Source: Hyphomicrobiales bacterium (GTDB lineage: Bacteria; Pseudomonadota; Alphaproteobacteria; Rhizobiales; Beijerinckiaceae). Taken from it: 41,993 nucleotides of DNA. The position numbers were made by a program, and so were the translations under genes. Below are positions 4,825 through 27,421 of the stretch, piece by piece. The DNA lies in NCBI GenBank assembly GCA_027489835.1, contig JAIXZF010000253.1, positions 1-41,993 on the forward strand, given 5' to 3'. Below the pieces are notes generated by a model. That model did no database searches. It was not told where the DNA came from and worked only from the letters and a program-made list of their open reading frames with translations. Position 1 is the first letter of the stretch, and each line of letters opens with the position of its first letter.

Positions 4825-5310
4825 GCTCGACAACGCCGTGCTGAAGGATCTGCTGGGAAAAAACTGATGACGCCTGCGGCGCGGTTCGCGGCGGTGGAGC
4901 GCGTGATGGTCGATCACGATTACTCCGAGCGGCGCGCCTGCAGGCTGATCGGAGTGGATTGGTCGAGCTTCCAGTATGAGCGGGCGGGCGGCGGCGACGC
5001 CTCCGTCCGCGCTCGTCTGAGAGAGCTTGCCAACGCGCGCCGCCGGTTTGGCTACCGGCGGCTGGCGATCATGCTCAAGCGGGACGGCGTGCCGATGAAC
5101 TTTAAGAAGGTCTACCGGCTCTACAAGGAGGAGCGGCTGATGGTGCGCAAACGTGGCGGCCGCAAGCGCGCGCTCGGCACGCGGGCGCCGATGGCGATCC
5201 CGCAGGGGCCGAACCAGCGCTGGAGCCTCGACTTTGTCTCCGACGCGCTCAACGACGGCCGGCGCTTCCGTGTGTTCGCAGTCGTCGACGACTTCACGAT
5301 GGAGTGCCTG
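4823..5310 (+). mobile_element. IS3-family (IS407-group-like) internal fragment: end of orfA, -1 frameshift site, 5' part of orfB
   Basis: MLDNAVLKDLLGKN* with slippery GGGAAAAAAC (~4855-4864), then SERRACRLIG...RRFGYRRL...PNQRWSLDFVSD...VVDDFTMECL; neither IS end is present. Confidence 0.9.
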
Positions 5311-5361
5311 TGACGTGCTCCCCGTTTTCCCGCCGGTCATAAGTTAGGTCCGGCTTCGTTT
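5311..5361 (-). mobile_element. Right end (last transposase codons and IRR) of an IS3-family element whose body continues at 31672-31912
   Basis: Minus strand reads AAAC GAA GCC GGA CCT AAC TTA TGA...GGGGAGCACGTCA; joins in frame to ...RPGQGQN at 31672 to give ...RPGQGQNEAGPNL*. Confidence 0.75.
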
Positions 5362-6236: not shown

Positions 6237-8516
6237 GTGACATTTCACGCCCATTCGCTTGATAGTGATGCGACGAAGGCGAGCTGGCAGCAGCTTTTGC
6301 CCCATCTCGAGGGCGTGGCTCGGTTAGCGGGCGAGCGGGCTCGTCCGTTTAGGTTCGAGCAGCTGTCGCGATTGGTGGGCCTGGCGCACGATCTGGGGAA
6401 GTATTCCGCCGCCTTCCAGTCCTACATCTCAGGCCATGGCACGAGCCCCGACCATGCCACCGCGGGCGCCCAGGTTCTAATGCATATGGCTGCGGGCGCT
6501 GGTCCCTATGAGCGCGTCGCGGCGCAGCTCGCCGCCTTCGCCGTTGCCGGTCACCATAGCGGATTGCCCGACCGCGGCTCGATCGACGAGCCCGGAACGT
6601 TGGAGCACAGGCTAATCAAGCCGATAGAGCCGCTCGACCCTTGCTGGCGGGACGAGCTGCCACTCGCTTTGTCCGGCTGCTTCGGGCCGCGCTCGCTGCA
6701 GCCGTCTACTGGCGAGGAAGCCTTCCAGCTGGCCTTCCTGGGCCGCATGATCTTCTCGGCTCTCGTCGACGCGGATTTTATCGACACCGAAACGTTTTAC
6801 GCAGAGCACAAGAAGCGCAGGCCCGACCGTAGTTGGCCGGCGTTGATCGACATTCTGCCGGGGCTCATCGGTCGCTTCGACGCGGAGATGGCCCGCAAGG
6901 CGGCCGACGCGAAGCCCGGTCGCGTCAACGCGCTGCGCACCGAGATACTCGCTGTCGTCCGCGCCAAGGCGAAGCTGCCACGCGGCGTTTACACGCTTGA
7001 CGTGCCTACGGGAGGGGGCAAGACGCTGGCGTCACTCGGCTTCGCGCTGGACCACGCGCTTACACACGGAATGCGCCGCATCCTCGTCGCCATTCCCTTC
7101 ACGTCGATCATCGAGCAGACGGCGAAGGTCTTCGGCGAGGTGCTGGGAGAGGGTGTGGTGCTCGAGCACCATTCCGGCATCGAGCAGGAGGAACGCGCAA
7201 GCGCGTCGGAGGGCGAGCGCCAAGCCTCCGACAAGCTGCGCCTGGCGATGGAGAACTGGGCGGCGCCGGTCGTGGTCACCACCAACGTTCAGCTCTTGGA
7301 AAGCCTCTTCGCCGACCGGACCTCGCGCTGCCGCAAGCTGCACGCGTTGGCGGACGCTGTAATCATCCTCGACGAGGCGCAGACCATTCCGCTGCCGGTG
7401 CTGCGGCCCGCCATCGCGGCGCTGCGGGAGCTGGCGCTGAACTATGGCGCGACCATCGTGCTGTGCACCGCCACGCAGCCCGCCCTCGCCGCGCCGGAAG
7501 GGGAAGGCACGGACGGCTTCATGGGCGGCTTCGCGCCGAGGCCGGTCGAGCTCGCACCGGATCCAGCGGCGCTTCACGCGGCCTTCCGGCGCGTGCAGCT
7601 TGATGTCCGGACGACGCCGATGACCGACGCCGAGCTGGTGGACGAACTGGCCGGCTCGCCACAGGGCCTCATCATCGTCAACACGCGCGGCCACGCGCTC
7701 GCGCTTCACCGCGCGGCCGCGGCCGCCGGCCTCGAAGGCCTCATGCATCTGAGCACCCGGCAGATCGCGGCGGACCGTGGTCCGGCGTTGGAGACCATCC
7801 GCGCGCTGCTGAAGGACGAGGCGCCCTGCCGCGTGATCGCCACGTCTCTGGTGGAGGCGGGGGTCGACCTCGACTTCCCGCACGTGTGGCGCGCCGAGGC
7901 GGGGCTCGACCAGATCGCGCAGGCGGCCGGTCGCTGCAACCGGGAAGGGCGGCGGCTTGTGGAGGGCAGTGTCGTCACGGTGTTCCGGGCTGCGGAACAC
8001 AGAACGCCGCGAGAGATTCAGGCTCTTGTCAACGCGATGCGCAGCACGAGGGAGAGCCACGCCGACCTATTCTCGCCCGAGGCAATGCGGCGCTACTTCC
8101 GCGAGGTCTACTGGGCACGCGGACCAAAGGAACTCGACCGACACGATGTGCTGGGTGCGTTCAAGATCAGCGGCGGTCAACTCTCCTTCGCCTACCGCAC
8201 CGTCGGCGAGCGCTTCCGCTTGATCGAAAGCGGCATGGAGCCGGTGATCGTGCCTATCCATCAGGCGGCGATCGAAGCGGTCGCCGGGGTGGCGGGCGGC
8301 TGGTTGCCGGCGGGCGCGGCCGCGCAGCGGCTTCAACGGCACATCGTGCTGGTGCCGCCGAAGGCACGACAGCGCCTGCTCGCCAATGGCCGCGCCAAAT
8401 TCGTGGACAAGGAGCGCCAGTTCGTGGTGCTGACCGACATGACCCTCTACACGCCCGAGATCGGGCTACTGTGGGGGGATGCGGACTACCTGTCGATCGA
8501 AAGCCTGTTCGCATGA
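6237..8516 (+). CDS. cas3: CRISPR-associated HD nuclease/helicase Cas3 (type I-C)
   Basis: HD motifs LAHDLGK, GHH, LVDADFID; Walker A PTGGGKT; DEAQ; QAAGRCNREG. Confidence 0.97.
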   Translation: MTFHAHSLDSDATKASWQQLLPHLEGVARLAGERARPFRFEQLSRLVGLAHDLGKYSAAFQSYISGHGTSPDHATAGAQVLMHMAAGAGPYERVAAQLAAFAVAGHHSGLPDRGSIDEPGTLEHRLIKPIEPLDPCWRDELPLALSGCFGPRSLQPSTGEEAFQLAFLGRMIFSALVDADFIDTETFYAEHKKRRPDRSWPALIDILPGLIGRFDAEMARKAADAKPGRVNALRTEILAVVRAKAKLPRGVYTLDVPTGGGKTLASLGFALDHALTHGMRRILVAIPFTSIIEQTAKVFGEVLGEGVVLEHHSGIEQEERASASEGERQASDKLRLAMENWAAPVVVTTNVQLLESLFADRTSRCRKLHALADAVIILDEAQTIPLPVLRPAIAALRELALNYGATIVLCTATQPALAAPEGEGTDGFMGGFAPRPVELAPDPAALHAAFRRVQLDVRTTPMTDAELVDELAGSPQGLIIVNTRGHALALHRAAAAAGLEGLMHLSTRQIAADRGPALETIRALLKDEAPCRVIATSLVEAGVDLDFPHVWRAEAGLDQIAQAAGRCNREGRRLVEGSVVTVFRAAEHRTPREIQALVNAMRSTRESHADLFSPEAMRRYFREVYWARGPKELDRHDVLGAFKISGGQLSFAYRTVGERFRLIESGMEPVIVPIHQAAIEAVAGVAGGWLPAGAAAQRLQRHIVLVPPKARQRLLANGRAKFVDKERQFVVLTDMTLYTPEIGLLWGDADYLSIESLFA

Positions 8517-8527
8517 GATGAGGCGGT

Positions 8528-8580
8528 GGAGATTGAAGTGGAATGAACCATTGACTATGACTCGGTTGAATGGCATGTGG
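8528..8580 (+). promoter_or_regulatory. Putative sigma70-type promoter with an adjacent mini-CRISPR target site and PAM
   Basis: TTGACT at 8551-8556 (-35-like; the -10 is weak and uncertain); protospacer-like 8528-8544 followed by GAA 8545-8547 (TTC PAM on minus strand). Confidence 0.6.
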
Positions 8581-8629
8581 GTCGTCGCGTGTTCGCACTC
8601 CCGCGACCGCGCTCGACAAGGTCTCTTCA

Positions 8630-8731
8630 ATGAAGAAGCCGAAGCGGAGCAACCGAGAGCGTTGGGTGGATGCGATCGCATTCGCCCTGGCTGTGTTCGT
8701 GAAGCTCCTTCTCTACCTGCGGCTGACTTGA
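8630..8731 (+). CDS. 33-aa basic/hydrophobic single-TM peptide, candidate CRISPR-repressed toxin
   Basis: MKKPKRSNRERWVDAIAFALAVFVKLLLYLRLT*; AAGG about 8 nt upstream; lies between the promoter and the mini-CRISPR; below the ORF-track size cutoff. Confidence 0.6.
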   Translation: MKKPKRSNRERWVDAIAFALAVFVKLLLYLRLT

Positions 8732-8740
8732 TCGCCGCCC

Positions 8741-8825
8741 GCCGCCTCCAGTTGGGGCGTGGATTGAAACATTCCTCTCCAATCTCCGAAAAAGGACGCC
8801 CCTCTGCGCTATGCAGAGGGGCGCA
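8741..8825 (+). ncRNA. Degenerate mini-CRISPR / crRNA-like regulatory RNA (CreA/CreR-like)
   Basis: Pseudo-repeat GCCGCCTCCAGTTGGGGCGTGGATTGAAAC (8741-8770) resembles the array repeat; ~24-nt spacer ATTCCTCTCCAATCTCCGAAAAAG; then repeat-like 11-bp hairpin CGCCCCTCTGC/GCAGAGGGGCG (8797-8823). Confidence 0.8.
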
Positions 8826-8834
8826 TTTCGCGCC

Positions 8835-9503
8835 ATGACCCACGGCATCCGCCTGCTCGTCTCCGGCGACCTTGCCTGCTTCACGCGGCCGGAGATGAAG
8901 GTCGAGCGCGTCTCCTATGACGTGATGACGCCCTCGGCCGCGCGCGGCATTCTCGAGGCGATCCACTGGAAGCCGGCCATCCGCTGGATCATCGAGGAGA
9001 TTCACGTACTGGAGCCGATCCGCTTCCAGTCGATCCGGCGCAACGAGGTCGCGTCCAAGGCCTCCGCCACCCTGGCGCGACGGGCGATGAACGCGGGCGA
9101 TCTCTCCGGCCTCGGCATCGTGGTGGAGGAGGAGCGCCAGCAGCGCGCGGCCACCGTGCTGTCGAGGGTGCGATACTTGATCAAGGCGCGCTTTGAGATG
9201 ACGCCGAAGGCGGGGCCGGACGACAACCCTGGCAAGCATGCCGAGATGGCGCGCCGCCGCGCGCGCGCCGGCCAGTGCTTCCACCAGCCCTGCCTCGGCG
9301 TGCGTGAATTTCCGGCCCGGTTCGAGCTCATGGACGATGGCGCGCCGACCCCGGTCGCCAAAGCGCCCGAGACGCGTGATCTCGGCTTCATGCTCTACGG
9401 CATCGACCATGCGCGGGGCGGAGCCTCGCTGTTCTTCCGCGCCCGGCTGGAGCGCGGCGTGCTGCGCGTGCCGCCGCCCGATAGCGAGGAGATCCGCCGA
9501 TGA
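8835..9503 (+). CDS. cas5: Type I-C Cas5 (Cas5c/Cas5d) crRNA-processing subunit
   Basis: GDLACFTRPEMKVERVSYDVMTPSAARGILEAIHWKP; GQCFHQPCLGVREF. Start taken at ATG 8835. Confidence 0.96.
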   Translation: MTHGIRLLVSGDLACFTRPEMKVERVSYDVMTPSAARGILEAIHWKPAIRWIIEEIHVLEPIRFQSIRRNEVASKASATLARRAMNAGDLSGLGIVVEEERQQRAATVLSRVRYLIKARFEMTPKAGPDDNPGKHAEMARRRARAGQCFHQPCLGVREFPARFELMDDGAPTPVAKAPETRDLGFMLYGIDHARGGASLFFRARLERGVLRVPPPDSEEIRR

Positions 9504-14418: not shown

Positions 14419-17400
14419 GTCGCTCCCTCACGGGAGCGTGGATCGAAACCGCAAACTGCAGCATCTGTGTCCCCGGAGCCTGAGGTCGCTCCCTCACGGG
14501 AGCGTGGATCGAAACAACATCGACGGGGTTGTTCACTCGAACATCATCGGGTCGCTCCCTCACGGGAGCGTGGATCGAAACACTTCGATGTCCATGACAG
14601 GACCCTTTCGGATGGTCGCTCCCTCACGGGAGCGTGGATCGAAACGGCGTCTACGCGGCATGCGTGACCGGCAACATCGGTCGCTCCCTCACGGGAGCGT
14701 GGATCGAAACACCCCGTGACCGTCTGTCTGACAGCCGAGCAGTGGTCGCTCCCTCACGGGAGCGTGGATCGAAACCTCGACTGCGCCCTGTCGTACCGGG
14801 GCTCGCGGGGTCGCTCCCTCACGGGAGCGTGGATCGAAACGGCGCGGCGCTGAGCGGCGTGGCGCAGGTGGCGAGGTCGCTCCCTCACGGGAGCGTGGAT
14901 CGAAACTCTTTAAGGGATTGGGTTACACTAGTGTCACCCTGTCGCTCCCTCACGGGAGCGTGGATCGAAACAGCGAAATGGCAGCCAGGCCGATTCAGGA
15001 AACAGAGGTCGCTCCCTCATGGGAGCGTGGATCGAAACATGGTCGCATCGCTGCTGCTCAACCAGCGGCCTTGTCGCTCCCTCACGGGAGCGTGGATCGA
15101 AACCGCGCGCATCCCGCTTGTGGTCTATTCGGCTGCCCGTCGCTCCCTCACGGGAGCGTGGATCGAAACGAGGAACGGCTGACGGACGCCATCAGCCGCC
15201 TCGGTCGCTCCCTCACGGGAGCGTGGATCGAAACATTGCCCATGTGGTGCACGGCCTCACACCCTGGGGTCGCTCCCTCACGGGAGCGTGGATCGAAACC
15301 ATGTCGTAGAGGTCATCGTCGCGGCGGATGAGGGTCGCTCCCTCACGGGAGCGTGGATCGAAACCGCGACTTCGTCACGGACGGGAACCCGCTCTCGGTC
15401 GCTCCCTCACGGGAGCGTGGATCGAAACTTCCATGGTATGGGCTCCGCGCGCCTCACATGCTCGTCGCTCCCTCACGGGAGCGTGGATCGAAACACGATA
15501 GTCGAAGCTGCCGGAGAGAGCCGCAAGCCGTCGCTCCCTCACGGGAGCGTGGATCGAAACCCCGACTCGTTGACGCGGTTGAGCTGCGCGAGGGTCGCTC
15601 CCTCACGGGAGCGTGGATCGAAACCCGCGTCTCCTGCGGCCCCGCAAGCGGCTGGTGGGTCGCTCCCTCACGGGAGCGAGGATCGAAACTCCACCTGCGA
15701 GGGGTGGTTGACACGGGCATCGCCGTCGCTCCCTCACGGGAGCGTGGATCGAAACATGAGCAATGACGCGACGGGATCAGCGACGAAAGTCGCTCCCTCA
15801 CGGGAGCGTGGATCGAAACACGAAAGAACAGGTGCGGCTCAAAGAGCATCGCCAGTCGCTCCCTCACGGGAGCGTGGATCGAAACTGCCACCGCTCCATT
15901 GGGCGAGCGCGGATCCGGTGTCGCTCCCTCACGGGAGCGTGGATCGAAACAAGATGCGTCCTGATCCGGTCGCCGAGCTTGACGGGGTCGCTCCCTCACG
16001 GGAGCGTGGATCGAAACAGGTGGCCGCGCTGCCGCTCGGCGGCGGGCAATCGTCGCTCCCTCACGGGAGCGTGGATCGAAACTCGTCCAAGGCCGGCGTC
16101 CAGTCATAGGCCGACGCGTCGCTCCCTCACGGGAGCGTGGATCGAAACCGTTCTACTCGGGCAGCAAGGGCCTCGTTCGCATGTCGCTCCCTCACGGGAG
16201 CGTGGATCGAAACTGGCGGAAGCGTGCAACGCCTCCACGGCCTCGAGCGTCGCTCCCTCACGGGAGCGTGGATCGAAACACCGACATCGTCATGGCCTGG
16301 ACGGATGCCGCCAGTCGCTCCCTCACGGGAGCGTGGATCGAAACTCTCCGGTCATCGTCGCGCCGGTCGAGGGCGGCGTCGCTCCCTCACGGGAGCGTGG
16401 ATCGAAACTGCGTCAACAGATGTTGGTTGCCGCTCGTCGCCGTCGCTCCCTCACGGGAGCGTGGATCGAAACATCGCCAATCTGCTGTCCTCGGCCGGCT
16501 TCGTCGTCGCTCCCTCACGGGAGCGTGGATCGAAACGCCGTCGAATTCTACCTCGACACCCTCGCTTAACCGGTCGCTCCCTCACGGGAGCGTGGATCGA
16601 AACTCCGAAATCGCCGACGCGGCGTTCGACGAAACCCTGTCGCTCCCTCACGGGAGCGTGGATCGAAACCTGTCCGACGTGACCGAACGGCGCGGCCTCG
16701 ATTGTCGCTCCCTCACGGGAGCGTGGATCGAAACGCGCCCACCTCGAATAGCCCTTCGCCGATGAAGGCGTCGCTCCCTCACGGGAGCGTGGATCGAAAC
16801 CATTGCGGAGACCTCGCGACTCAGACGCAGCCGCGGTCGCTCCCTCACGGGAGCGTGGATCGAAACAACGTCGAGGTGCTGGACCGGCGCGTCCGGCGGC
16901 GTCGCTCCCTCACGGGAGCGTGGATCGAAACACCATCATCGATGCGGAATGGCGACCCGAAAACGTGTCGCTCCCTCACGGGAGCGTGGATCGAAACGCC
17001 GCCATGGTCCGGTGGATGCCATTGACATCAAGGTCGCTCCCTCACGGGAGCGTGGATCGAAACATCTGCGTGGCTGGAATGCGGGGCTTCTGAATGTGTC
17101 GCTCCCTCACGGGAGCGTGGATCGAAACACCAACGCCGCGTGCAGCTGGCCGACTTCGTCGGGGTCGCTCCCTCACGGGAGCGTGGATCGAAACGCCTGA
17201 TGACGGATGCTGAGCGCCGCGCGGCTGGAGTCGCTCCCTCACGGGAGCGTGGATCGAAACTCGACGCAGGTGGTGGGACTGAGCAGCGGAGACGGTCGCT
17301 CCCTCACGGGAGCGTGGATCGAAACTCGCGCAACGCGTCGCGCGCCTGGAGCAACCGACGGTCGCTCCCTCACGGGAGCGTGGATCGAAACTCCATAGCG

Positions 17401-18961
17401 CAGGCAAGATATGGCTCGCGACGACGTCGCTCCCTCACGGGAGCGTGGATCGAAACACCACGAAGGAGCCGGTGACGCCCTCGATCCGGAGTCGCTCCCT
17501 CACGGGAGCGTGGATCGAAACTAGGCACCGGTGAAAATCCGGCCCTAGCCATATCGTCGCTCCCTCACGGGAGCGTGGATCGAAACTCGGTCTTGGTCGT
17601 GTCAGCCGTTTGCGCGCCGGCGGTCGCTCCCTCACGGGAGCGTGGATCGAAACTCCTTAGAGGCTCTGGGCGAAAGCCCGGTGAGTGGTCGCTCCCTCAC
17701 GGGAGCGTGGATCGAAACCACCTTCCGGACACCGACACCATCGACGCCGAGGGTCGCTCCCTCACGGGAGCGTGGATCGAAACTCGGCGTGGCTGCGGTG
17801 AGAGGCGGTTGCCCAGTGTCGCTCCCTCACGGGAGCGTGGATCGAAACGCCCAGCATGGCACATCTGGCGACACGGGCGGCTAGTCGCTCCCTCACGGGA
17901 GCGTGGATCGAAACCTGCAAGTGCGCCTGACCACAAGTGCCAGTAACGTCGCTCCCTCACGGGAGCGTGGATCGAAACTCCTGAAGGCCCGCAGGCTGGA
18001 CCTGCCAGTTATGAGGTCGCTCCCTCACGGGAGCGTGGATCGAAACGCCGATCAGCATGAAGGGCCGCGCGGGCGTGAGGTCGCTCCCTCACGGGAGCGT
18101 GGATCGAAACATCCTTGACCAGCCGCCAACGGGCTCAACCTACGGTCGCTCCCTCACGGGAGCGTGGATCGAAACACATGCACGCGGCTGCCGTCGGCCC
18201 CGTAGAGCGCGTCGCTCCCTCACGGGAGCGTGGATCGAAACGCCTATGACGGGCAGACCCGCGCGCTGATCGCGCTGTCGCTCCCTCACGGGAGCGTGGA
18301 TCGAAACCTGCAAGGGCTCCGCACATGGGATGCGTTCGGCAAGGTCGCTCCCTCACGGGAGCGTGGATCGAAACCAGATGGACGGGCCGGGCTATACCAA
18401 CCCGTATCGTCGCTCCCTCACGGGAGCGTGGATCGAAACTCGAGCGCCTTGCCCACGGCCTCGGGGGTCGGCGGTCGCTCCCTCACGGGAGCGTGGATCG
18501 AAACAGCGCGGCCGTCATCAGGCGCTGCACCTGCGTGGCGTCGCTCCCTCACGGGAGCGTGGATCGAAACCGCATGTTCGCCAAGCCCTTCCTGATGGCC
18601 GCCGGTCGCTCCCTCACGGGAGCGTGGATCGAAACATCTTGTTGGCATGGGCCGCGACGCCGCTGTTCGCGTCGCTCCCTCACGGGAGCGTGGATCGAAA
18701 CGCGTTCGGGGGGATCTACTGATGGCCGCGCCCGTGTCGCTCCCTCACGGGAGCGTGGATCGAAACAACAACACTGTCGCGCCTTTCCGCAACGCCGCCG
18801 CGTCTCTCCCTCACGAGAGCGTGGATTGAAACACGATGTCGATGTCTGCACCAACCGAGCCGCGGTGGTCGCTTCATTAGAGGAGCTAGGATCGCAACCA
18901 TGCCATCACAACTTTGTGGCCGGGCAGCCGGTCGCTGCCTCGCAGGGGCGTGGATTTAAAC
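14419..18961 (+). CRISPR. Type I-C CRISPR array, 31-bp repeat GTCGCTCCCTCACGGGAGCGTGGATCGAAAC; 70 repeats and 69 spacers by manual count
   Basis: 67 near-identical repeats (14419 to 18736; single-base variants at 15008 and 15659) plus three degenerate trailer repeats (18802, 18868, 18931); spacers ~32-37 bp; stem CGCTCCC/GGGAGCG. Confidence 0.99.
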
Positions 18962-20658
18962 TACATGACAAGTGCGGCCTGCCTGTTCCAATCCAACGGC
19001 AGTGCGATGCCTGGTGCGATATCCGCCCCTGTGATCGACAGCGCGGCATTTCCTTCGAGGTAAGCTTCAACCAACTTAGGTTTGAGAAAAGCCAGCCGCA
19101 GCAACTGTGCGACATAGCGCTCGCTGACCCCCTCCTGGGCTGCGATCTCCCGCATTGAACCGGCGCGGCCGGTCGTCAAATCGTCATACCAGGTCACAGC
19201 TCGGGAGAGTGCCTTGATGAGCGACTTGTCGAGTGGCGCCGATAGATCGGCTCCCTCATTCGGCGGCACCATAAGATGCAGGGTCTGCCCCCGGCGGACA
19301 AAGCGCCCCGCGACTTCGATGGTCGTGGCAGGCCCGTCGTTTCGCCCCTTACTCTGGTCGCGCTCGCCTATGGCGACAGAGCCCAATGCGTCGCGCGTTA
19401 ACATGAGACTAAGGCCGTCGCGGCGAATGGTGATGCGTTCCAGCAGGCGCGGGAGTGCTTGGCGCTGCGAAGGCCCGGTCGGTTGCTGCAGCTCGCTTGC
19501 CAGCCTCGCTGCCTCGCTCGCCCGTTGCGCGATCGAGTCAGGGGAGGCTTCATCCTTCATCAGCGTCGCCATCAGCCATGAGCGGTCAACGAGCTTCGTG
19601 GTCAACGTCCGGAGAACCAGCGGTTCGATCTCTCCGGCCGGTATGCGCAAGGCCTCGGCAACCTCGGGCCTTGTGACATAGTAGCGGTAGCGCCGGCCCG
19701 CCTTCGTGGTGTGACTGCCGATCAAGCCGTTGCCAGCCTCGTCGAACAGCAGGCGCGACAGCAGATTGGCATCCTTGGCGTTGGCGCGCACGCGGCCCTC
19801 CTGCTTGCCGGCGGAGAGACGCTGCTGAACGGCCTCAAACGTCTCGGGCGCGACAATCGCCTGGTGTTGCGCCTTGAAGCGCTCGCCCCTGTGAGCGATC
19901 TCGCCGGCGTAGATGGGGTTGGCCAGGATTGCGCGCAGATGCCCGAGGCTGAAGGGACGCGCGCCCCACTCCCGGTTTGAAGCCGATTTAAAGGCGCGTG
20001 TCACAACGTGCTTGCGGTCGAGTTCTTCCTTCAACCTGCGGATACCGCCAAGGATTAGGAAGCGCTCAAAGATGTCGCGAATGATCGCTGCCTCTTCGTC
20101 CACGATCCTGAGCGTGCGCCCGTCTGCGGCGTAACCCATAGGCACGAACCCGCCCATCCAGAGGCCCTTCTTCTTGGACGCGGCGATTTTGTCCCGGATG
20201 CGCTCGCCTGTGACCTCGCGCTCGAACTGCGCGAAGGACAACAGCACGTTCAGCGTCAGGCGCCCCATTGAGCTGGTCGTGTTGAACGATTGCGTCACGG
20301 AGACAAAGGACACCCCTTTCGTATCGAAAACCTCGACCATCCGGGCGAAGTCGGTGAGCGAGCGGGTGAGCCGGTCGACCTTGTAGACCACGACAGTGTC
20401 GATCAACTCTGCATGGATGTCGGACAGCAGGCGCTTGAGCCCGGGGCGCTCCATGGAGCCGCCGGAGAAGCCCCCGTCGTCGTAAGATGTGGCGAGCGTT
20501 CTCCAACCTTCATGGCGCTGTGAAGCGACATAGGCCTCGCAGGCCTCGCGCTGGGCATGAAGGGAGTTGAACTCCTGTTCCAGCCCCTCCTCCGAGCTTT
20601 TGCGCGTGTAGATCGCGCAGCGGATTGTCCGGAGCTTTTGGTTGATACGATCACGCAT
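18961..20658 (-). CDS. Large serine recombinase (resolvase plus recombinase domains)
   Basis: RCAIYTRKSSEEGLEQEFNSLHAQRE, YDDGGFSG, VVVYKVDRLTRS, TSSMGRLTLNVLLSFAQFEREVTGERIRDK. Confidence 0.95.
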   Translation of the reverse strand: MRDRINQKLRTIRCAIYTRKSSEEGLEQEFNSLHAQREACEAYVASQRHEGWRTLATSYDDGGFSGGSMERPGLKRLLSDIHAELIDTVVVYKVDRLTRSLTDFARMVEVFDTKGVSFVSVTQSFNTTSSMGRLTLNVLLSFAQFEREVTGERIRDKIAASKKKGLWMGGFVPMGYAADGRTLRIVDEEAAIIRDIFERFLILGGIRRLKEELDRKHVVTRAFKSASNREWGARPFSLGHLRAILANPIYAGEIAHRGERFKAQHQAIVAPETFEAVQQRLSAGKQEGRVRANAKDANLLSRLLFDEAGNGLIGSHTTKAGRRYRYYVTRPEVAEALRIPAGEIEPLVLRTLTTKLVDRSWLMATLMKDEASPDSIAQRASEAARLASELQQPTGPSQRQALPRLLERITIRRDGLSLMLTRDALGSVAIGERDQSKGRNDGPATTIEVAGRFVRRGQTLHLMVPPNEGADLSAPLDKSLIKALSRAVTWYDDLTTGRAGSMREIAAQEGVSERYVAQLLRLAFLKPKLVEAYLEGNAALSITGADIAPGIALPLDWNRQAALVM

Positions 20659-21202
20659 TGGCGGCCTCGGGCATCGTGTCAGTCCGCACCTTGGCTGCGT
20701 TCTTGTTGCGGCTGTTGCTGCGCGTGAGGCCAAAGAACAGCCAGCCATTCCAGTTCGTGCCGGTGATTGCCCTGGCGATGCTGGACAGCGAGCAGTAGGT
20801 CACCTCGTTCCAGACGTAGCCGTCTGTGAGCACGATGACGCGATGGGTGGTGCCCTGCCACACACGGATGAACAGCGTGCCCGGCTTGATCGAGGACATG
20901 CCCAGAACCTCCTCAAAGCGCCCATCTCGCGCGGCTGCAGCCAGCTGGCGCAGACGGCGCTTTGTGGCAGGTGACAGACCGCCGAAATTGGCGATCTGAA
21001 CCTCATGGGCCAGTGCCCTGCGCAGCAAGCCGCTGCGAAAGCCGCGCGGGGCGGGACGGCCCGTGACCTTCAGCCAGCGCGAGCGCAGCGCATCAAGGTC
21101 AAGCTCGTCCAACTGCGACAGCAGCGCTGCGACATCGATGCGGGATGCTCGGGACTCGTCCGGCCCTGCCGGCGCTCCCACCCTGCTCTGCTTGCCCATC
21201 AT
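20651..21202 (-). CDS. DUF2924-family protein
   Basis: KPGTLFIRVWQGTTHRV...YCSLSSIARAITGTNWNGWLFFGL; overlaps the recombinase start. Confidence 0.88.
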   Translation of the reverse strand: MMGKQSRVGAPAGPDESRASRIDVAALLSQLDELDLDALRSRWLKVTGRPAPRGFRSGLLRRALAHEVQIANFGGLSPATKRRLRQLAAAARDGRFEEVLGMSSIKPGTLFIRVWQGTTHRVIVLTDGYVWNEVTYCSLSSIARAITGTNWNGWLFFGLTRSNSRNKNAAKVRTDTMPEAANA

Positions 21203-23756: not shown

Positions 23757-26700
23757 CTAGGCGAAGGCGAAGTCTGCGGACGAAAACTGATTAGGCTGAT
23801 GACCAATGAACCAAACTTGTGTATTGCCGTCAACGATGAGTACGGTGCCATTGATAATACTGGAAAAAATCAAGTTTGATTGGACTTGCACGAAACTATT
23901 TAGAGCTGTGCCCTCCAAACGTACAACATCGTTAACACCAGAGACTTCGAAGTCATTCATTACCTTTATGCCCGAGTTTGCAGTTACAATGAACGTATCG
24001 TTTCCACCACCAGTTGTGCCATCGCCCCCATAGAAATAGTCGAAACCGGTTGGTCCACCGATGAGCGTATCGTTACCTTCGCCGCCAACCAGTACATTGA
24101 AAGCGTTGCTGACATTATCCGTAGCACGCAATGTGTCAGCGCCTCCTTCACCATAGAGCCAATCTTGGCCGAGCCCGCTTTCGAGCGAGTCGTCATTAGC
24201 CCCGCCAGAGATGATGTCATCGTCATCGTCGCCAGATATTGTATCGTTGCCGTCATATCCCCAGAGGCTATCGGCCCCTTGACCGCCGTGCAGGACATCT
24301 GCGCCACTGCCTCCGATCAGGACGTCAGCGCCGTCGCCGCTCCAGAGGGCGTCATCACCATCTTGCCCGTCCAATGAGTCGTTGCCAGCCCCGCCTTGCA
24401 ACAGGTCACCACCGGAGCCACCGATCAGGGTATCTGCTCCCAACCCCCCCACGAGAACATCGTCGTTCATGCTGCCAATGATGCTGTCATTGCCGGCACG
24501 CCCGTCGATGAAGGCCCCGATCGCCGTATTCCCGGGACTGGCGCTGCTGGGACCAAGGTGAAGACTGCCAGCCGTAATCGCGTCGTTTCCGCCACCCGAG
24601 ATAAGCGCCTCAACATTCTTGTCCGCCAGCACAAGAACAAGGTTCCCGGTGCTCTGGAAAATGGCTGTATCATAGCCTTCTCCGCCATCAATGAGGTATC
24701 CGAAGGTCCCCGTCGCCGGTTTGTCCTCGCTGTCAAAAAACAACGTGTCATCACCGGCTAGACCATACAAATCATCCGTTCCTGCCCCTCCGGCCAGAAC
24801 ATCATTCTTGCTGTTTCCTCGAAGAATGTCGTTCCCGCCGTTTCCGAAAAGCGTAACCGCATACGGGCCCAAGTTTGTGATCACATCGTTGGCATTGCCG
24901 GTGATGGCCCCGTCAGAGGTATGGGTACCAGCATTGATCTGTAAATCAACGCCATGGATGAAATAAGACGCTGCATTCGAGTTGGGGTAATTTTGGGACA
25001 ACACAGCCATATCGATGAACGACTGCACGAGATTGCCGTTCTCACTGGTGTATTTGAATCCGTCGCCAAGCGGGCTTCGGCTGTAGCCAACCGTCTCATA
25101 GGCAAACGCTGCGTCGCCATAGACCCGGACAGCGCCGCTCTGCGTGAAACTCCCGAACCCGTGCACCTTGCTGCCATCGGGCAATTGCAACGCGCGATTG
25201 TCTGTTGTGAGGTTGAATTCGGTGATGCCAAGCGCCGTCAGGGTGCTCAGTTCGGAAGCTGTGCTGACGCCGTCCTGGTTTGCGTCCTTCCAGACCCGGA
25301 ATTCGCCCCAGCGCGTGTCCGCTGCCGTCAGCTTGCCGTCATTGTTGCTGTCATACAGCGTCCGGATCGCCTGCACGTCGGTATCGTCCGGATTTGCGGT
25401 CTGGACGGCAAAGCTGACTTCCTTGGCCTGGGAAATCACCCCATCCGCCCCGGCGTTGCCGTTGGCTGCAAGATCGATGACCAGCAGTCCGTCGGTCGGC
25501 CCGGCCCAGGCTGTCTGTTCCTTGAAGCCATCACCATCGACGTCGAAATACACCGTCGAATCAATCCGGGACGTGATGTCGACGCCGTCATTGTTGAGAT
25601 CGAGCACGAGCGGCTCGAACCAGTCGAAATCCCAGCCGTCAAAGATCGAACTTGTCCATCCGCCGGTATAGTACGACGTGCCATAGCCGGAGTTGTCCCA
25701 ACCAAGCCAGGTGTCGTCGCCTCCGGAGCTTGCATTCTCGATGTTCACGTAAGGAAGGGTCGAGTTGTAAGCCCCTCCAACGTCAATATCGTAGCCTCCC
25801 GCGCTAAAGTCGAAGGCCGGGCCGAACTGCGGCTCGATCGACAAGACAGATGGGACTGCCGAATCCGTCGCGCCGCCGTGGAAAGCACTGCGTCCGACCT
25901 CATGCGTCAGCGCATTGACAGCGCTTTCGTCCATGCGCGCCAGATGGGCATCATTGAGCGAGCGGCTCGACAGCCAGGACGTGAAGTCATCGTACAGCTT
26001 GCTGATGCCGACCAACAGGCCGTCCGGCCCATAATCTTCGCGCGTCTGTACATCCGCGCGCTGGTCCAGCGGGTCATAAAGCAGTCTTGTCTGAAGTGGA
26101 TTCCCGGGCGTGGCAGAATTGTCCTCGTAGGTCTCCCACTTAACCAACTCACCGTACGGGTTGAAAAGCTGCTGCCCTGTCAATGGATCGATGATGGTGT
26201 GCGCACGTGCCTCAGTCCATTGCACGTCTCCGGTGGCACCATTTATCCTTGTGTTGGTGACAGTTAAGACGCCAAATTCGGGGTCAAACACCTGTGCGCC
26301 CGCCAGAATCGTGTCCTCAACACCGGTGCGGGCCGGACTGCCCGCAGCTGCACGTGCAGCATTGATTTCCGCTGCGTTCAGTGGCTCGGCAACCGAGCCT
26401 GGCGTACCCCAATAGGCCGGGTCGTTCTGATAGGTGACGTTGCTGGCGGATTTAATGAGTGCGCCGTTTGACCCGTTTGAGTTGGAATCGTCGATAGCGC
26501 CGGTTGGGACTGGAATATATGTTAGGTTTTTGTCGTTGATCGCTTCTTTCGCGAAATTCGCCGCTGCCCAGCCCTGCTCCATCTCAGTCTTCGTGCCCCT
26601 CGCAACAGTTTCCTCATAGCGGCTGCCATAGGCGACTGCTTGGCTCCCTGTGCTGGCGACGGGGTTGTCTTTATAGGGTAGTTCGTTCCCGTTTGGCTGA

Positions 26701-26906
26701 CGGAGGTTTGGGTCGCCTTCCTTTACAAAAAGCGTCCCATATGGAGCGGTGGTCTGAAAGGTATCATTCGGTCCTCTCGCTCCACCATGCAATTCTTTGA
26801 CAGTATCTCCGAATTCATTGACAAGACGCAGAAATCTATGGCTTGCTGTTCCACCAGTCACGGCTATTGGAAAGCTCCAAACTTGAATTGAGTATTGACC
26901 GGGCAT
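23757..26906 (-). CDS. RTX calcium-binding secreted protein with FrpC-like self-processing module and uncharacterised N-terminal domain
   Basis: Many GGxGxDxL nonapeptides in the C-terminal third; EPLVLDLNNDG...FDVDGDGFKEQTAW...DGLLVID...LRTLYD-like/VWKDANQDG module; AGGAG SD before ATG 26906. Confidence 0.88.
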   Translation of the reverse strand: MPGQYSIQVWSFPIAVTGGTASHRFLRLVNEFGDTVKELHGGARGPNDTFQTTAPYGTLFVKEGDPNLRQPNGNELPYKDNPVASTGSQAVAYGSRYEETVARGTKTEMEQGWAAANFAKEAINDKNLTYIPVPTGAIDDSNSNGSNGALIKSASNVTYQNDPAYWGTPGSVAEPLNAAEINAARAAAGSPARTGVEDTILAGAQVFDPEFGVLTVTNTRINGATGDVQWTEARAHTIIDPLTGQQLFNPYGELVKWETYEDNSATPGNPLQTRLLYDPLDQRADVQTREDYGPDGLLVGISKLYDDFTSWLSSRSLNDAHLARMDESAVNALTHEVGRSAFHGGATDSAVPSVLSIEPQFGPAFDFSAGGYDIDVGGAYNSTLPYVNIENASSGGDDTWLGWDNSGYGTSYYTGGWTSSIFDGWDFDWFEPLVLDLNNDGVDITSRIDSTVYFDVDGDGFKEQTAWAGPTDGLLVIDLAANGNAGADGVISQAKEVSFAVQTANPDDTDVQAIRTLYDSNNDGKLTAADTRWGEFRVWKDANQDGVSTASELSTLTALGITEFNLTTDNRALQLPDGSKVHGFGSFTQSGAVRVYGDAAFAYETVGYSRSPLGDGFKYTSENGNLVQSFIDMAVLSQNYPNSNAASYFIHGVDLQINAGTHTSDGAITGNANDVITNLGPYAVTLFGNGGNDILRGNSKNDVLAGGAGTDDLYGLAGDDTLFFDSEDKPATGTFGYLIDGGEGYDTAIFQSTGNLVLVLADKNVEALISGGGNDAITAGSLHLGPSSASPGNTAIGAFIDGRAGNDSIIGSMNDDVLVGGLGADTLIGGSGGDLLQGGAGNDSLDGQDGDDALWSGDGADVLIGGSGADVLHGGQGADSLWGYDGNDTISGDDDDDIISGGANDDSLESGLGQDWLYGEGGADTLRATDNVSNAFNVLVGGEGNDTLIGGPTGFDYFYGGDGTTGGGNDTFIVTANSGIKVMNDFEVSGVNDVVRLEGTALNSFVQVQSNLIFSSIINGTVLIVDGNTQVWFIGHQPNQFSSADFAFA

Positions 26907-26920
26907 CTTTATCTCCTGAT

Positions 26921-27421
26921 TCACCGATTAATACGAATCACCTTTGGCAGTAAAATTGAAGCTCGAACGTCCGGAGTAAATCCGACCTGGTTCGCTGGCC
27001 ATTTAACTCTGAGTTGCCAATGCCATGGAGAGGTAGAGCAACCCTGCCGGTCACATGACTGTGCTGTGTACTTCCTATCAATAAGGCAGGCATATCCCGC
27101 GACAGTTCGACTGCATGCACCACCTGCCTCCGCGATAATGTTGAGCAGCTTGGAGGTCTCGTTATCTCCGCGGCTGACAATTTTGTGACGAAGATACTTT
27201 TCCTTTCCGCTTTCTTCTCCAGGCAGCGCCGAGAGCATCGTCGTGTCGAAATACTCGCTTCTCGGCCCGCTCCCGTAGCTGGGGCTAATAGTAAAGGGCG
27301 CAGGCGCGCAGGCTGTCAGGGCCGCCTGCATCGCAAGGCACAGCGCAGGCCATTGCAAGACGCGCGCGAGAAGGGATCGATTGCGTGCAGCGCCGTCTAC
27401 ATCACCAAGTGACTCAGTCAT
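26921..27421 (-). CDS. Putative lipoprotein directly upstream of the RTX gene
   Basis: Hydrophobic stretch ending in lipobox LTAC; four further Cys; stop 14 nt before the RTX start. Start codon uncertain. Confidence 0.55.
   Translation of the reverse strand: MTESLGDVDGAARNRSLLARVLQWPALCLAMQAALTACAPAPFTISPSYGSGPRSEYFDTTMLSALPGEESGKEKYLRHKIVSRGDNETSKLLNIIAEAGGACSRTVAGYACLIDRKYTAQSCDRQGCSTSPWHWQLRVKWPANQVGFTPDVRASILLPKVIRINR

What the first reader, a model, noticed from the sequence alone, without database searches (positions are those of the whole stretch)
8528..8825. Mini-CRISPR between cas3 and cas5 whose spacer targets the adjacent promoter with a TTC PAM
Seen: a pseudo-repeat (8741-8770, ending GCGTGGATTGAAAC), a short spacer and a repeat-like hairpin. 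Spacer nt 1-17 (ATTCCTCTCCAATCTCC) match the minus strand of 8528-8544 (ATTCCACTTCAATCTCC) at 15/17, with mismatches at positions 6 and 9. The target is preceded by 5'-TTC and lies 6 bp from a TTGACT -35 box. Established: TTC is the type I-C PAM; every sixth guide base is flipped out in Cascade; short or partial guides support binding and repression without Cas3 cleavage (CreA/CreR-type RNAs). Inference: Cas5 processes this RNA and Cascade represses the promoter driving the peptide ORF, the guide itself and possibly cas5-cas2, forming a feedback loop that anti-CRISPRs or cas loss would release.
Basis: partly seen in the sequence, partly recalled or inferred. Interest (0 to 1): 0.92.

Follow-up and report, generated by a model that had tools for sequence, protein, structure and literature searches.

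The report
CRISPR-silenced micro-peptide before cas5c
Between two CRISPR genes sits a tiny guide-like RNA gene that matches a likely promoter just upstream, and that promoter would drive a 33-amino-acid peptide of an unnamed conserved family, likely a membrane toxin set free when a phage disables CRISPR; this kind of RNA switch is already described, but a cargo this small appears to be new.

Summary
Observation confirmed. The spacer (8771-8787) matches the minus strand of 8528-8544 at 15/17 with a TTC PAM; 0 of 2000 shuffles reach that, and it is the genome's only such site. In 30 of 48 distinct related type I-C elements the spacer matches its own locus (32 of 2256 cross-pairs), with TTC in 29 of 30 in a PAM-blind search and mismatches concentrated at positions 6 and 12. 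This layout (cas3, target, promoter, cargo, solitary repeat, 3' hairpin, cas5c) is the published type I-C crlRNA/CRISIS circuit, so the switch is known. New here is the cargo: ORF 8630-8731 belongs to an unnamed 31-33-aa family conserved at protein level, predicted as one hydrophobic helix with an invariant mid-helix Lys/Arg. Best reading (0.55): Cascade represses a toxin-like membrane peptide and the cas5-cas2 genes, a minimal anti-anti-CRISPR fail-safe. Toxicity, the promoter and the RNA are untested; 8 of 38 loci with a target show no clear ORF. The scan earlier noted a compact I-C self-repressing guide in another genome (e1-8723452), with no peptide mentioned in the lines shown.

The parts
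6237..8516 (+). cas3 (HD nuclease + helicase), open frame of 759 aa
   Evidence: TIGR01596 passes its cut-off, TIGR01587 100.2 vs cut-off 102.45; translation
8528..8544 (-). Target (protospacer) of the guide, 15/17 match
8545..8547 (-). 5'-TTC PAM
   Evidence: TTC in 29 of 30 related matches found PAM-blind
8551..8579 (+). Predicted sigma-70 promoter: -35 TTGACT, 17 nt, extended TG, weak -10 CATGTG; start near 8585-8587 (inferred)
   Evidence: not found by the strict scan
8581..8618 (+). Predicted 5'-UTR hairpin; a second small hairpin holds the AAGG ribosome site and the AUG
   Evidence: 8575-8640: -26 kcal/mol, z -2.03
8630..8731 (+). 33-aa ORF (MKKPKRSNRERWVDAIAFALAVFVKLLLYLRLT), member of an unnamed 31-33-aa single-helix hydrophobic family; candidate toxin
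8740..8770 (+). Pseudo-repeat: 6-bp hairpin 8743-8759 plus 11-nt handle 8760-8770; predicted Cas5c cut between 8759 and 8760
   Evidence: weak Rfam CRISPR-DR9 match, 18.3 bits, E 0.3
8771..8796 (+). Spacer-like guide; only the first 17 nt pair with the target
8797..8823 (+). 3' hairpin (11 bp, loop 8808-8812); a guide from 8760 to the loop would be 49-53 nt; its 3' arm holds a purine run 13 nt before the cas5 ATG; reads as a terminator only on the minus strand
8835..9503 (+). cas5c (predicted processing nuclease), 11 nt behind the hairpin
   Evidence: TIGR01876
9500..14235 (+). cas8c, cas7c, cas4, cas1c, cas2
14419..18832 (+). CRISPR array, 68 repeats of 31 nt, spacers 33-37 nt

Best explanation
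The 318-nt cas3-cas5c gap holds a solitary repeat with a 17-nt match to a TTC-flanked site beside a likely promoter, and a conserved 33-codon ORF; the RNA is predicted to guide Cascade to silence that promoter, keeping a likely membrane-toxic peptide switched off. Steps: (1, shown) target, PAM, -35 box, ORF, pseudo-repeat, spacer, hairpin and cas5c lie in this order, and spacer and target covary across related loci. (2, inferred from the CRISIS experiments) a transcript from about 8586 is cut by Cas5c at 8759/8760 and trimmed in the loop at 8808-8812, giving a 49-53-nt crlRNA. (3, inferred) Cascade binds 8528-8547 next to the -35 box; 15-17 paired bases, against 33-37-nt array spacers, would allow binding without Cas3 cleavage. 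(4, inferred from anatomy) the hairpin ends 11 nt before cas5c and is not a plus-strand terminator, so the same promoter would also feed cas5c-cas2 and the guide itself: a negative feedback loop. (5, shown) the ORF is conserved as protein; (predicted) it forms one helix, residues 8-32, hydrophobic, with D14 and K25 on one face. (6, hypothesis) when an anti-CRISPR, an RNA decoy or a cas mutation removes Cascade, the peptide would accumulate and depolarise the membrane, giving dormancy or abortive infection. Rough odds: guide real and repressing 0.9; peptide made and functional 0.85; its function toxic 0.55 overall.
For: Covariation 30 of 48 vs 32 of 2256, PAM-blind TTC 29 of 30; with all 17 positions scored, matches at position 6 are 7 of 30 and at 12 are 11 of 30, against 28-30 of 30 at positions 1-5; 38 of 48 have a target if one bulge is allowed, TTGAC beside it in 17 of 38 vs 2 of 152 and 8 of 151; unique genomic target. 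Geometry fits the tested I-C crlRNAs: 11-nt handle, 48-50 nt, 3' end in a hairpin loop, TSS 37-46 bp downstream of the target; here 49-53 nt and about 38-43 bp. Peptide: gap-free 33-aa alignment with three cargo ORFs of other I-C loci; among those three, codon positions 1/2/3 are identical at 13-22/20-24/8 of 32, and against the window 11-15/15-16/8-10 of 32; a profile built without the window's peptide ranks it second of 10,176 short genome ORFs, and 0 of 5000 shuffles reach its BLOSUM sum; 18 representatives at E<=0.001 (one is the window's own), mostly 31-33 aa; K/R25 in 18 of 18, W12 in 18 of 18, polar residue 14 in 18 of 18; one helix, mean pLDDT 84. Type I toxins are mostly <60-aa single-helix membrane peptides whose positive charges are often essential (PMC12648545, passages). 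Tested cargos in this slot or under CreA control are toxic when released. About 30 of 38 target-bearing loci carry a small ORF of several unrelated kinds (sorted by eye), as expected of an exchangeable cargo slot.
Against: No expression or toxicity data. The -10 box is poor and the strict scan finds no promoter. The peptide matches no known toxin: 0 Pfam families, no NCBIfam match near a cut-off, 0 PADLOC, no PDB match better than E 1.5; the Atlas gives unnamed clusters at 0.83 and a DinQ-like cluster at only 0.79 with low recognition, which is not support. 8 of 38 target-bearing loci show no clear ORF (L084, L144, L155, L172, L202, L204, L205, L206), so the circuit can run as plain cas autorepression. 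In the Cas5 clade holding all 9 family or family-like loci, 39 of 49 lack the element, and the nearest Cas5 (L001, 78%) has a 6-nt gap: it is easily lost. The window's peptide is a divergent member (8.4 bits on the leave-out profile; 17 of 4851 scored block shuffles reach that). The whole-region fold pairs the pseudo-repeat's 3' arm with the cas5 start region instead of forming the Cas5c hairpin. The pseudo-repeat stem test is only moderately enriched (32 of 38 vs 104 of 266).
Confidence: 0.55

Rival explanations
1. CreR-type autorepression is the purpose: the guide tunes cas5c-cas2 expression, and the peptide is a non-toxic leader whose translation protects the long leader from termination or steers the fold between the Cas5c hairpin and pairing with the cas5 ribosome site.
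For: 8 of 38 target-bearing loci lack a clear ORF, e.g. L204, L205 and L084 run from promoter straight into the pseudo-repeat; cas5c follows the hairpin by 11 nt; alternative folds involve the cas5 start, and a covarying 11-16-bp helix covers the cas5 ribosome site in L005, L008, L011, L015, L193; CreR in I-C was predicted in 10.1101/2023.03.10.532045 (passages).
Against: A mere translated leader needs no conserved W12, K/R25 and hydrophobic helix; conservation is spread over the peptide rather than in a C-terminal arrest motif.
Confidence: 0.3
2. The peptide is a CRISPR-tuned accessory that is not toxic by itself: a direct anti-phage membrane factor (for example blocking DNA entry) or a partner of a host membrane protein or of Cascade.
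For: CRISIS cargos protect against phage at their repressed level and include 2TM and 3TM proteins; all 9 family or family-like loci fall in one Cas5 clade (96 SH-aLRT); strong profile hits in 401 genomes of the order lie only in cas3-cas5 gaps (4 of 4, all training members).
Against: 39 of 49 loci of that clade lack it; unrelated small ORFs fill the same slot elsewhere; 33 aa leaves little room for sensing.
Confidence: 0.11
3. The element is a decayed relic or chance match with no present function at this locus.
For: Weak -10, weak pseudo-repeat hairpin, divergent peptide; family-like ORFs in L006, L015 and L088 look broken by a premature stop or frameshift (weak profile scores).
Against: Perfect seed apart from position 6, intact PAM, handle and ORF; 0 of 2000 shuffles and a unique genomic site; third-position GC of the ORF 0.79 against 0.58 overall.
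Confidence: 0.04

Closest known systems
CRISIS / type I-C crlRNA-regulated cargo (Nezha, Gabija, Wukong etc.; 10.1101/2024.12.27.630466, parts 1-3 of 6 read plus passages; supplements closed)
   Same: cas3-[target, promoter, cargo]-solitary repeat-cas5c order; TTC PAM; about 16-17 nt match with position 6 free; 11-nt handle; 3' hairpin giving about 50 nt; target 37-46 bp before the start site.
   Different: The cargos whose size is given there are enzymes of 440-1026 aa, others are 2TM/3TM or multi-gene systems; the main text has no occurrence of 'peptide' or 'ORF'. Here the cargo is 33 aa, in an alphaproteobacterial Cas5 clade, and untested.
CreTA / CrePA (CRISPR-repressed toxin-antitoxin; 10.1101/2024.01.05.574328 passages; 10.64898/2026.06.02.729485 parts 1-2 of 6; PMC12737573 passages)
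   Same: Degenerate mini-CRISPR in the cas3-effector gap whose partial guide silences a small neighbouring gene's promoter beside its -35 box.
   Different: Described in I-B and I-F; toxins are RNAs with mini-ORFs (rare or proline codons) or a 103-aa KilAC protein that blocks division. Here I-C, one transcript for cargo and guide, and a predicted membrane helix.
CreR / regulatory mini-arrays (10.1101/2023.03.10.532045 passages; PMC10120712 passages and Table 1)
   Same: Guide targets the promoter upstream of the Cascade genes; I-C examples were predicted (Figure S7, not seen; 7% of 1206 I-C loci with mini-arrays).
   Different: CreR is defined as lacking a coupled toxin; here a conserved ORF lies between promoter and guide.
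Type I toxin peptides (TisB, DinQ, Ibs, Hok; PMC12648545 passages)
   Same: Under 60 aa, one hydrophobic helix, conserved charged residues, structured 5' UTR.
   Different: No sequence match to any such family; control would be by Cascade at the promoter, not by an antisense RNA; toxicity untested.

Membership tests
Type I-C crlRNA / CRISIS | Solitary repeat directly before cas5c with a hairpin and conserved 11-nt handle | tested here: met
Type I-C crlRNA / CRISIS | Partial spacer match to a TTC/TTA-flanked site upstream of the cargo, mismatches at 6/12 | tested here: met
Type I-C crlRNA / CRISIS | Target beside the -35 box, start site 37-46 bp downstream | tested here: inconclusive
   predicted about 38-43 bp, -10 weak; no mapped start
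Type I-C crlRNA / CRISIS | About 50-nt RNA ending in the loop of a 3' hairpin | tested here: inconclusive
   geometry gives 49-53 nt; no RNA data
Type I-C crlRNA / CRISIS | Cascade-dependent repression of the promoter | not testable with these tools
   needs a reporter
Type I-C crlRNA / CRISIS | Cargo is an anti-phage system, toxic when derepressed | not testable with these tools
   no PADLOC or Pfam match; needs phage and toxicity assays
CreTA / CrePA | Repressed gene is a toxin | not testable with these tools
   anatomy only
CreTA / CrePA | RNA toxin with mini-ORF (CreT) or KilAC protein (CreP) | tested here: not met
   33-codon ORF conserved as protein; no Pfam match
CreR | Guide targets the promoter feeding the Cascade genes | tested here: inconclusive
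   no room for another promoter between hairpin and cas5c, no plus-strand terminator; transcript not mapped
CreR | No coupled toxin-like gene | tested here: not met
   conserved ORF 8630-8731; whether it is a toxin is open
Type I toxin-antitoxin | Small single-helix hydrophobic peptide | tested here: met
   33 aa, 19-residue hydropathy 2.07, helix 8-32
Type I toxin-antitoxin | Antisense RNA that pairs with the toxin mRNA | not tested
   no search made; a minus-strand terminator-like site lies at 8824-8796

The most novel reading that the evidence does not exclude
Type I-C Cascade keeps a whole hidden class of unannotated micro-peptide toxins silenced in the cas3-cas5c gap: a 33-aa membrane-helix family (this window), a basic hairpin-like family ending in Glu-Pro-Pro, and 50-60-aa hairpin-plus-helix peptides. 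This would be the first CRISPR-repressed type-I-toxin-like membrane peptide and the smallest protein-based CRISPR fail-safe, a complete promoter-toxin-guide circuit in about 300 nt.
Probability: 0.5. Interest if true: 0.72.

Novelty: new variant of a known kind. Interest (0 to 1): 0.58.

Why it matters
It answers an open question put in a 2025 review (PMC12737573, passages: do CRISPR-coupled toxins exist in other CRISPR types and with other cellular targets?) with a directly testable candidate. Surveys that start from annotated genes between cas3 and cas5c would miss ORFs of 24-60 aa, so many I-C loci filed as plain autorepressors may carry a kill switch: 47 of 180 non-identical loci with a cas3 end had a long gap with a solitary repeat. 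It bears on how I-C systems persist, how AcrIC phages fare, and on using native I-C systems for editing; a 300-nt cassette would also be a compact AcrIC screen or biocontainment part.

Tried and rejected
RNA-seq: no RNA holder was listed; no evidence either way. Four-copy complex prediction: no verdict, score 0.10. Rfam: only sub-threshold matches (CRISPR-DR9 E 0.3, PyrR E 0.84, sR43 E 2). Phage mimic (Cracr-like) of this guide: 0 matches with a 20-nt pattern, 3 with an 18-nt pattern that diverge after the pattern and show no repeat context: rejected as chance. Peptide relative P0006 against plasmids and phages: no match. The word-index protein search does not take 33 aa, and the alignment was too variable for a viral-contig scan, so occurrence in viral contigs is open. 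A second Atlas look with P0006 did not complete. Weak profile hits in 7 other genomes (E 1.8e-4 to 0.009) are parts of longer two-helix proteins or other frames: rejected. Other targets of the guide in the genome: none. Second solitary repeat in the genome: none at 1 mismatch. Array self-targets: only 17-22-nt partial matches. The 53-aa reading from 8570 was set aside because the family aligns from Met 8630 and 8570 lies inside the predicted promoter. The upstream ATG 8811 for cas5 was set aside because relatives align from 8835. Dropped rows: L081 (own copy), L085, L086; for loci with gap of 120 nt or less, handle under 35 nt from cas5 or under 200 nt upstream were left out (57 kept of 210, 48 after removing near-identical spacers); targets were sought only 500 nt upstream, which misses long-cargo loci such as L075-L077; the tree used 137 loci and is the quick, unfinished-bootstrap version.

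Full report
Setting. The window carries a complete type I-C locus: cas3 6237-8516, cas5c 8835-9503, cas8c, cas7c, cas4, cas1c, cas2 and an array of 68 repeats at 14419-18832 with 33-37-nt spacers. The finding lies in the 318-nt cas3-cas5c gap. Close Cas5 relatives are mostly alphaproteobacterial.

Pseudo-repeat 8740-8770 shares 13 of its last 14 nt with the array repeat and has a 6-bp stem ending at the 11-nt handle. The next 17 nt match the minus strand of 8528-8544 at 15 positions (mismatches 6 and 9) behind 5'-TTC. None of 2000 shuffles of the 500 nt upstream reaches 15/17, and no other TTC or TTT site in the genome reaches 12 of the 15 scored positions. An 11-bp hairpin follows at 8797-8823. 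The promoter is a prediction: TTGACT, 17 nt, extended TG, CATGTG; the strict scan does not report it.

Relatives show the match is selected. From 210 cas5c loci, 185 included the cas3 end; a handle motif was present in 43 of 52 gaps of 201-600 nt and 1 of 114 gaps of 120 nt or less. For 48 non-redundant spacers, the best PAM-blind match in the own upstream 500 nt reached 12 of 15 in 30 cases, against 32 of 2256 cross-locus pairs; 29 of the 30 had TTC and one TTT, whereas cross hits had mixed PAMs. With all 17 positions scored, positions 1-5 match in 28-30 of 30, position 6 in 7, position 12 in 11, and pairing falls to chance at 18. With one bulge allowed 38 of 48 have a target, on either strand, and exact TTGAC lies next to it in 17 of 38 versus 2 of 152 and 8 of 151 control windows. 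Ten of 48 have no target in range; some carry kilobase cargo. Kin are not independent, but the spacers differ from locus to locus, so the agreement has been kept through many changes.

The switch is known. The CRISIS preprint (10.1101/2024.12.27.630466; parts 1-3 of 6 read; passages) shows for type I-C that a solitary repeat before cas5c yields a 48-50-nt RNA with an 11-nt handle and a 3' end in a hairpin loop, which represses 4.8- to 60-fold a promoter whose start lies 37-46 bp from a TTC/TTA target, and that for three systems tested the cargo becomes lethal under AcrIC9. The window fits: 49-53 nt to the loop, predicted start about 38-43 bp away. I-C CreR-like elements and mini-arrays were also predicted earlier (passages).

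The cargo is the new part. ORF 8630-8731 aligns without gaps to 33-aa ORFs in the same slot of L005, L188 and L193 (21-27% identity). Among those three the third codon position is identical in 8 of 32 codons each time, while positions 1 and 2 are at 13-22 and 20-24 of 32: selection acts on the protein. A profile built without the window's peptide ranks it second among 10,176 short ORFs of the genome; the score is modest (8.4 bits; 17 of 4851 scored block shuffles reach it; 0 of 5000 by BLOSUM sum). A search of 1.84 billion representatives gave 18 hits, one the window's own, mostly 31-33 aa, unnamed or 'hypothetical'; their genomic context could not be read. In an 18-member alignment W12 and K/R25 are invariant, residue 14 is always polar (D in 11) and lies 20 degrees from residue 25 on a helical wheel, with hydrophobic residues between. 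AlphaFold2 gives one helix, 8-32. There is no match in Pfam, NCBIfam, PADLOC or the PDB. In 401 genomes of the order the only strong hits are the four cas3-cas5c copies used for training. All 9 family or family-like loci fall in one Cas5 clade of 49, of which 39 lack the element (quick tree).

The slot is exchangeable. By eye, of 38 target-bearing loci 4 carry this family, 2 family-like ORFs (one broken), 3 other short hydrophobic helices, 13 a basic family ending in Glu-Pro-Pro (one doubtful), 6 a 47-62-aa group with a C-terminal hydrophobic helix, 2 others, and 8 none or unclear.

Mechanism. One transcript from about 8586 would carry peptide, guide and cas5c onward: the hairpin ends 11 nt before the cas5c start and reads as a terminator only on the minus strand. 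Cas5c would cut at 8759/8760; Cascade with the short guide would sit at 8528-8547, block RNA polymerase at the -35 box and hinder read-through from cas3, without enough pairing to recruit Cas3 (established for partial guides; passages). This is a negative feedback loop. If Cascade is inhibited or lost, peptide and cas genes rise together. Size, single helix and conserved charges resemble type I toxins (PMC12648545, passages), and the tested cargos under CreA or crlRNA control that I read about are toxic on release, so I commit to a membrane-depolarising fail-safe at 0.55. Against it: no family match, no data on expression or toxicity, frequent loss, cargo-free forms, and a predicted alternative fold that pairs the pseudo-repeat with the cas5 start. 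Pure autorepression with a non-toxic leader peptide gets 0.3, a non-toxic accessory 0.11, a relic 0.04.

Novelty. Searches of the held library found no description of CRISPR-repressed micro-peptides or of this family; the CRISIS main text has no occurrence of 'peptide' or 'ORF'. The library lacks most subscription papers, and the bioRxiv supplements (CRISIS Supplementary Data 1, the content of CreR Figure S7) could not be seen and may list such loci. Verdict: a real type I-C crlRNA circuit, a new variant of a known kind through its micro-peptide cargo. Interest 0.58; 0.72 if the peptide proves toxic.

Noticed in passing
L152:2807-2878, L153:2804-2875, L156:2345-2416, L149:2773-2844, L100:693-767, L103, L020, L122, L060, L128, L115, L141, L034: A second unnamed cargo family of mostly 24-49 aa: basic start, alternating hydrophobic pattern, near-invariant Pro at the end of a Glu-Pro-Pro motif. 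In L149, L152, L153, L156 the two Pro codons directly precede the stop, as in the proline-codon CreT of P. aeruginosa; codon positions 2/3 identical at 17-21/7-14 of 23. No Pfam match for those scanned.
   Followed up: partly
L043:2739-2888, L101:1849-1989, L026/L037:2753-2914, L061, L105, L140, L158: A third, looser cargo group of 47-62 aa with a polar N-terminal part and a hydrophobic C-terminal helix, in beta-, gamma- and deltaproteobacterial-type loci.
   Followed up: partly
L005, L008, L011, L015, L193 (last 110 nt before cas5): An 11-16-bp helix of differing sequence pairs a pyrimidine-rich stretch 5' of the pseudo-repeat with the cas5 ribosome site, enclosing the whole guide; these loci lack a strong 3' hairpin. 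Cas5c cutting might control its own translation. The window has a 3' hairpin instead.
   Followed up: partly
L006:2701-2733, L088, L015:2758-2934: Family-like ORFs that look broken by a premature stop or a frameshift while the guide is kept (L015 15/15 by inspection); profile support weak.
   Followed up: partly
L204, L205, L084: Minimal forms without cargo: promoter runs straight into the pseudo-repeat; in L084 a tRNA-like sequence sits in the gap (seen by eye, not run through ARAGORN).
   Followed up: no
L075-L077, L121, L130, L136, L138: Loci with kilobase cargo genes (where the cas3 end was seen: L076, L130, L138) and a solitary repeat before cas5c, probably the published CRISIS loci; targets lie beyond the 500 nt searched.
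   Followed up: no
L005, L008, L095, L103, L105, L115, L128, L144: Several guides fit their target only with a one-base bulge, often at position 6.
   Followed up: partly
L051, L169, L025 (gap before cas5): A related ORF of about 110 aa sits between cas3 and cas5 without a detected solitary repeat.
   Followed up: no
window 4857-5313 and 18961-20748: An IS3-family transposase fragment upstream of cas3 and a large serine recombinase directly behind the array; 0 of 36 same-genus genomes searched carry this cas5: the locus is likely mobile.
   Followed up: no
window 23757-26924 (-): 1055-aa ORF with calcium-binding RTX-type repeats; all family matches far below cut-off.
   Followed up: no
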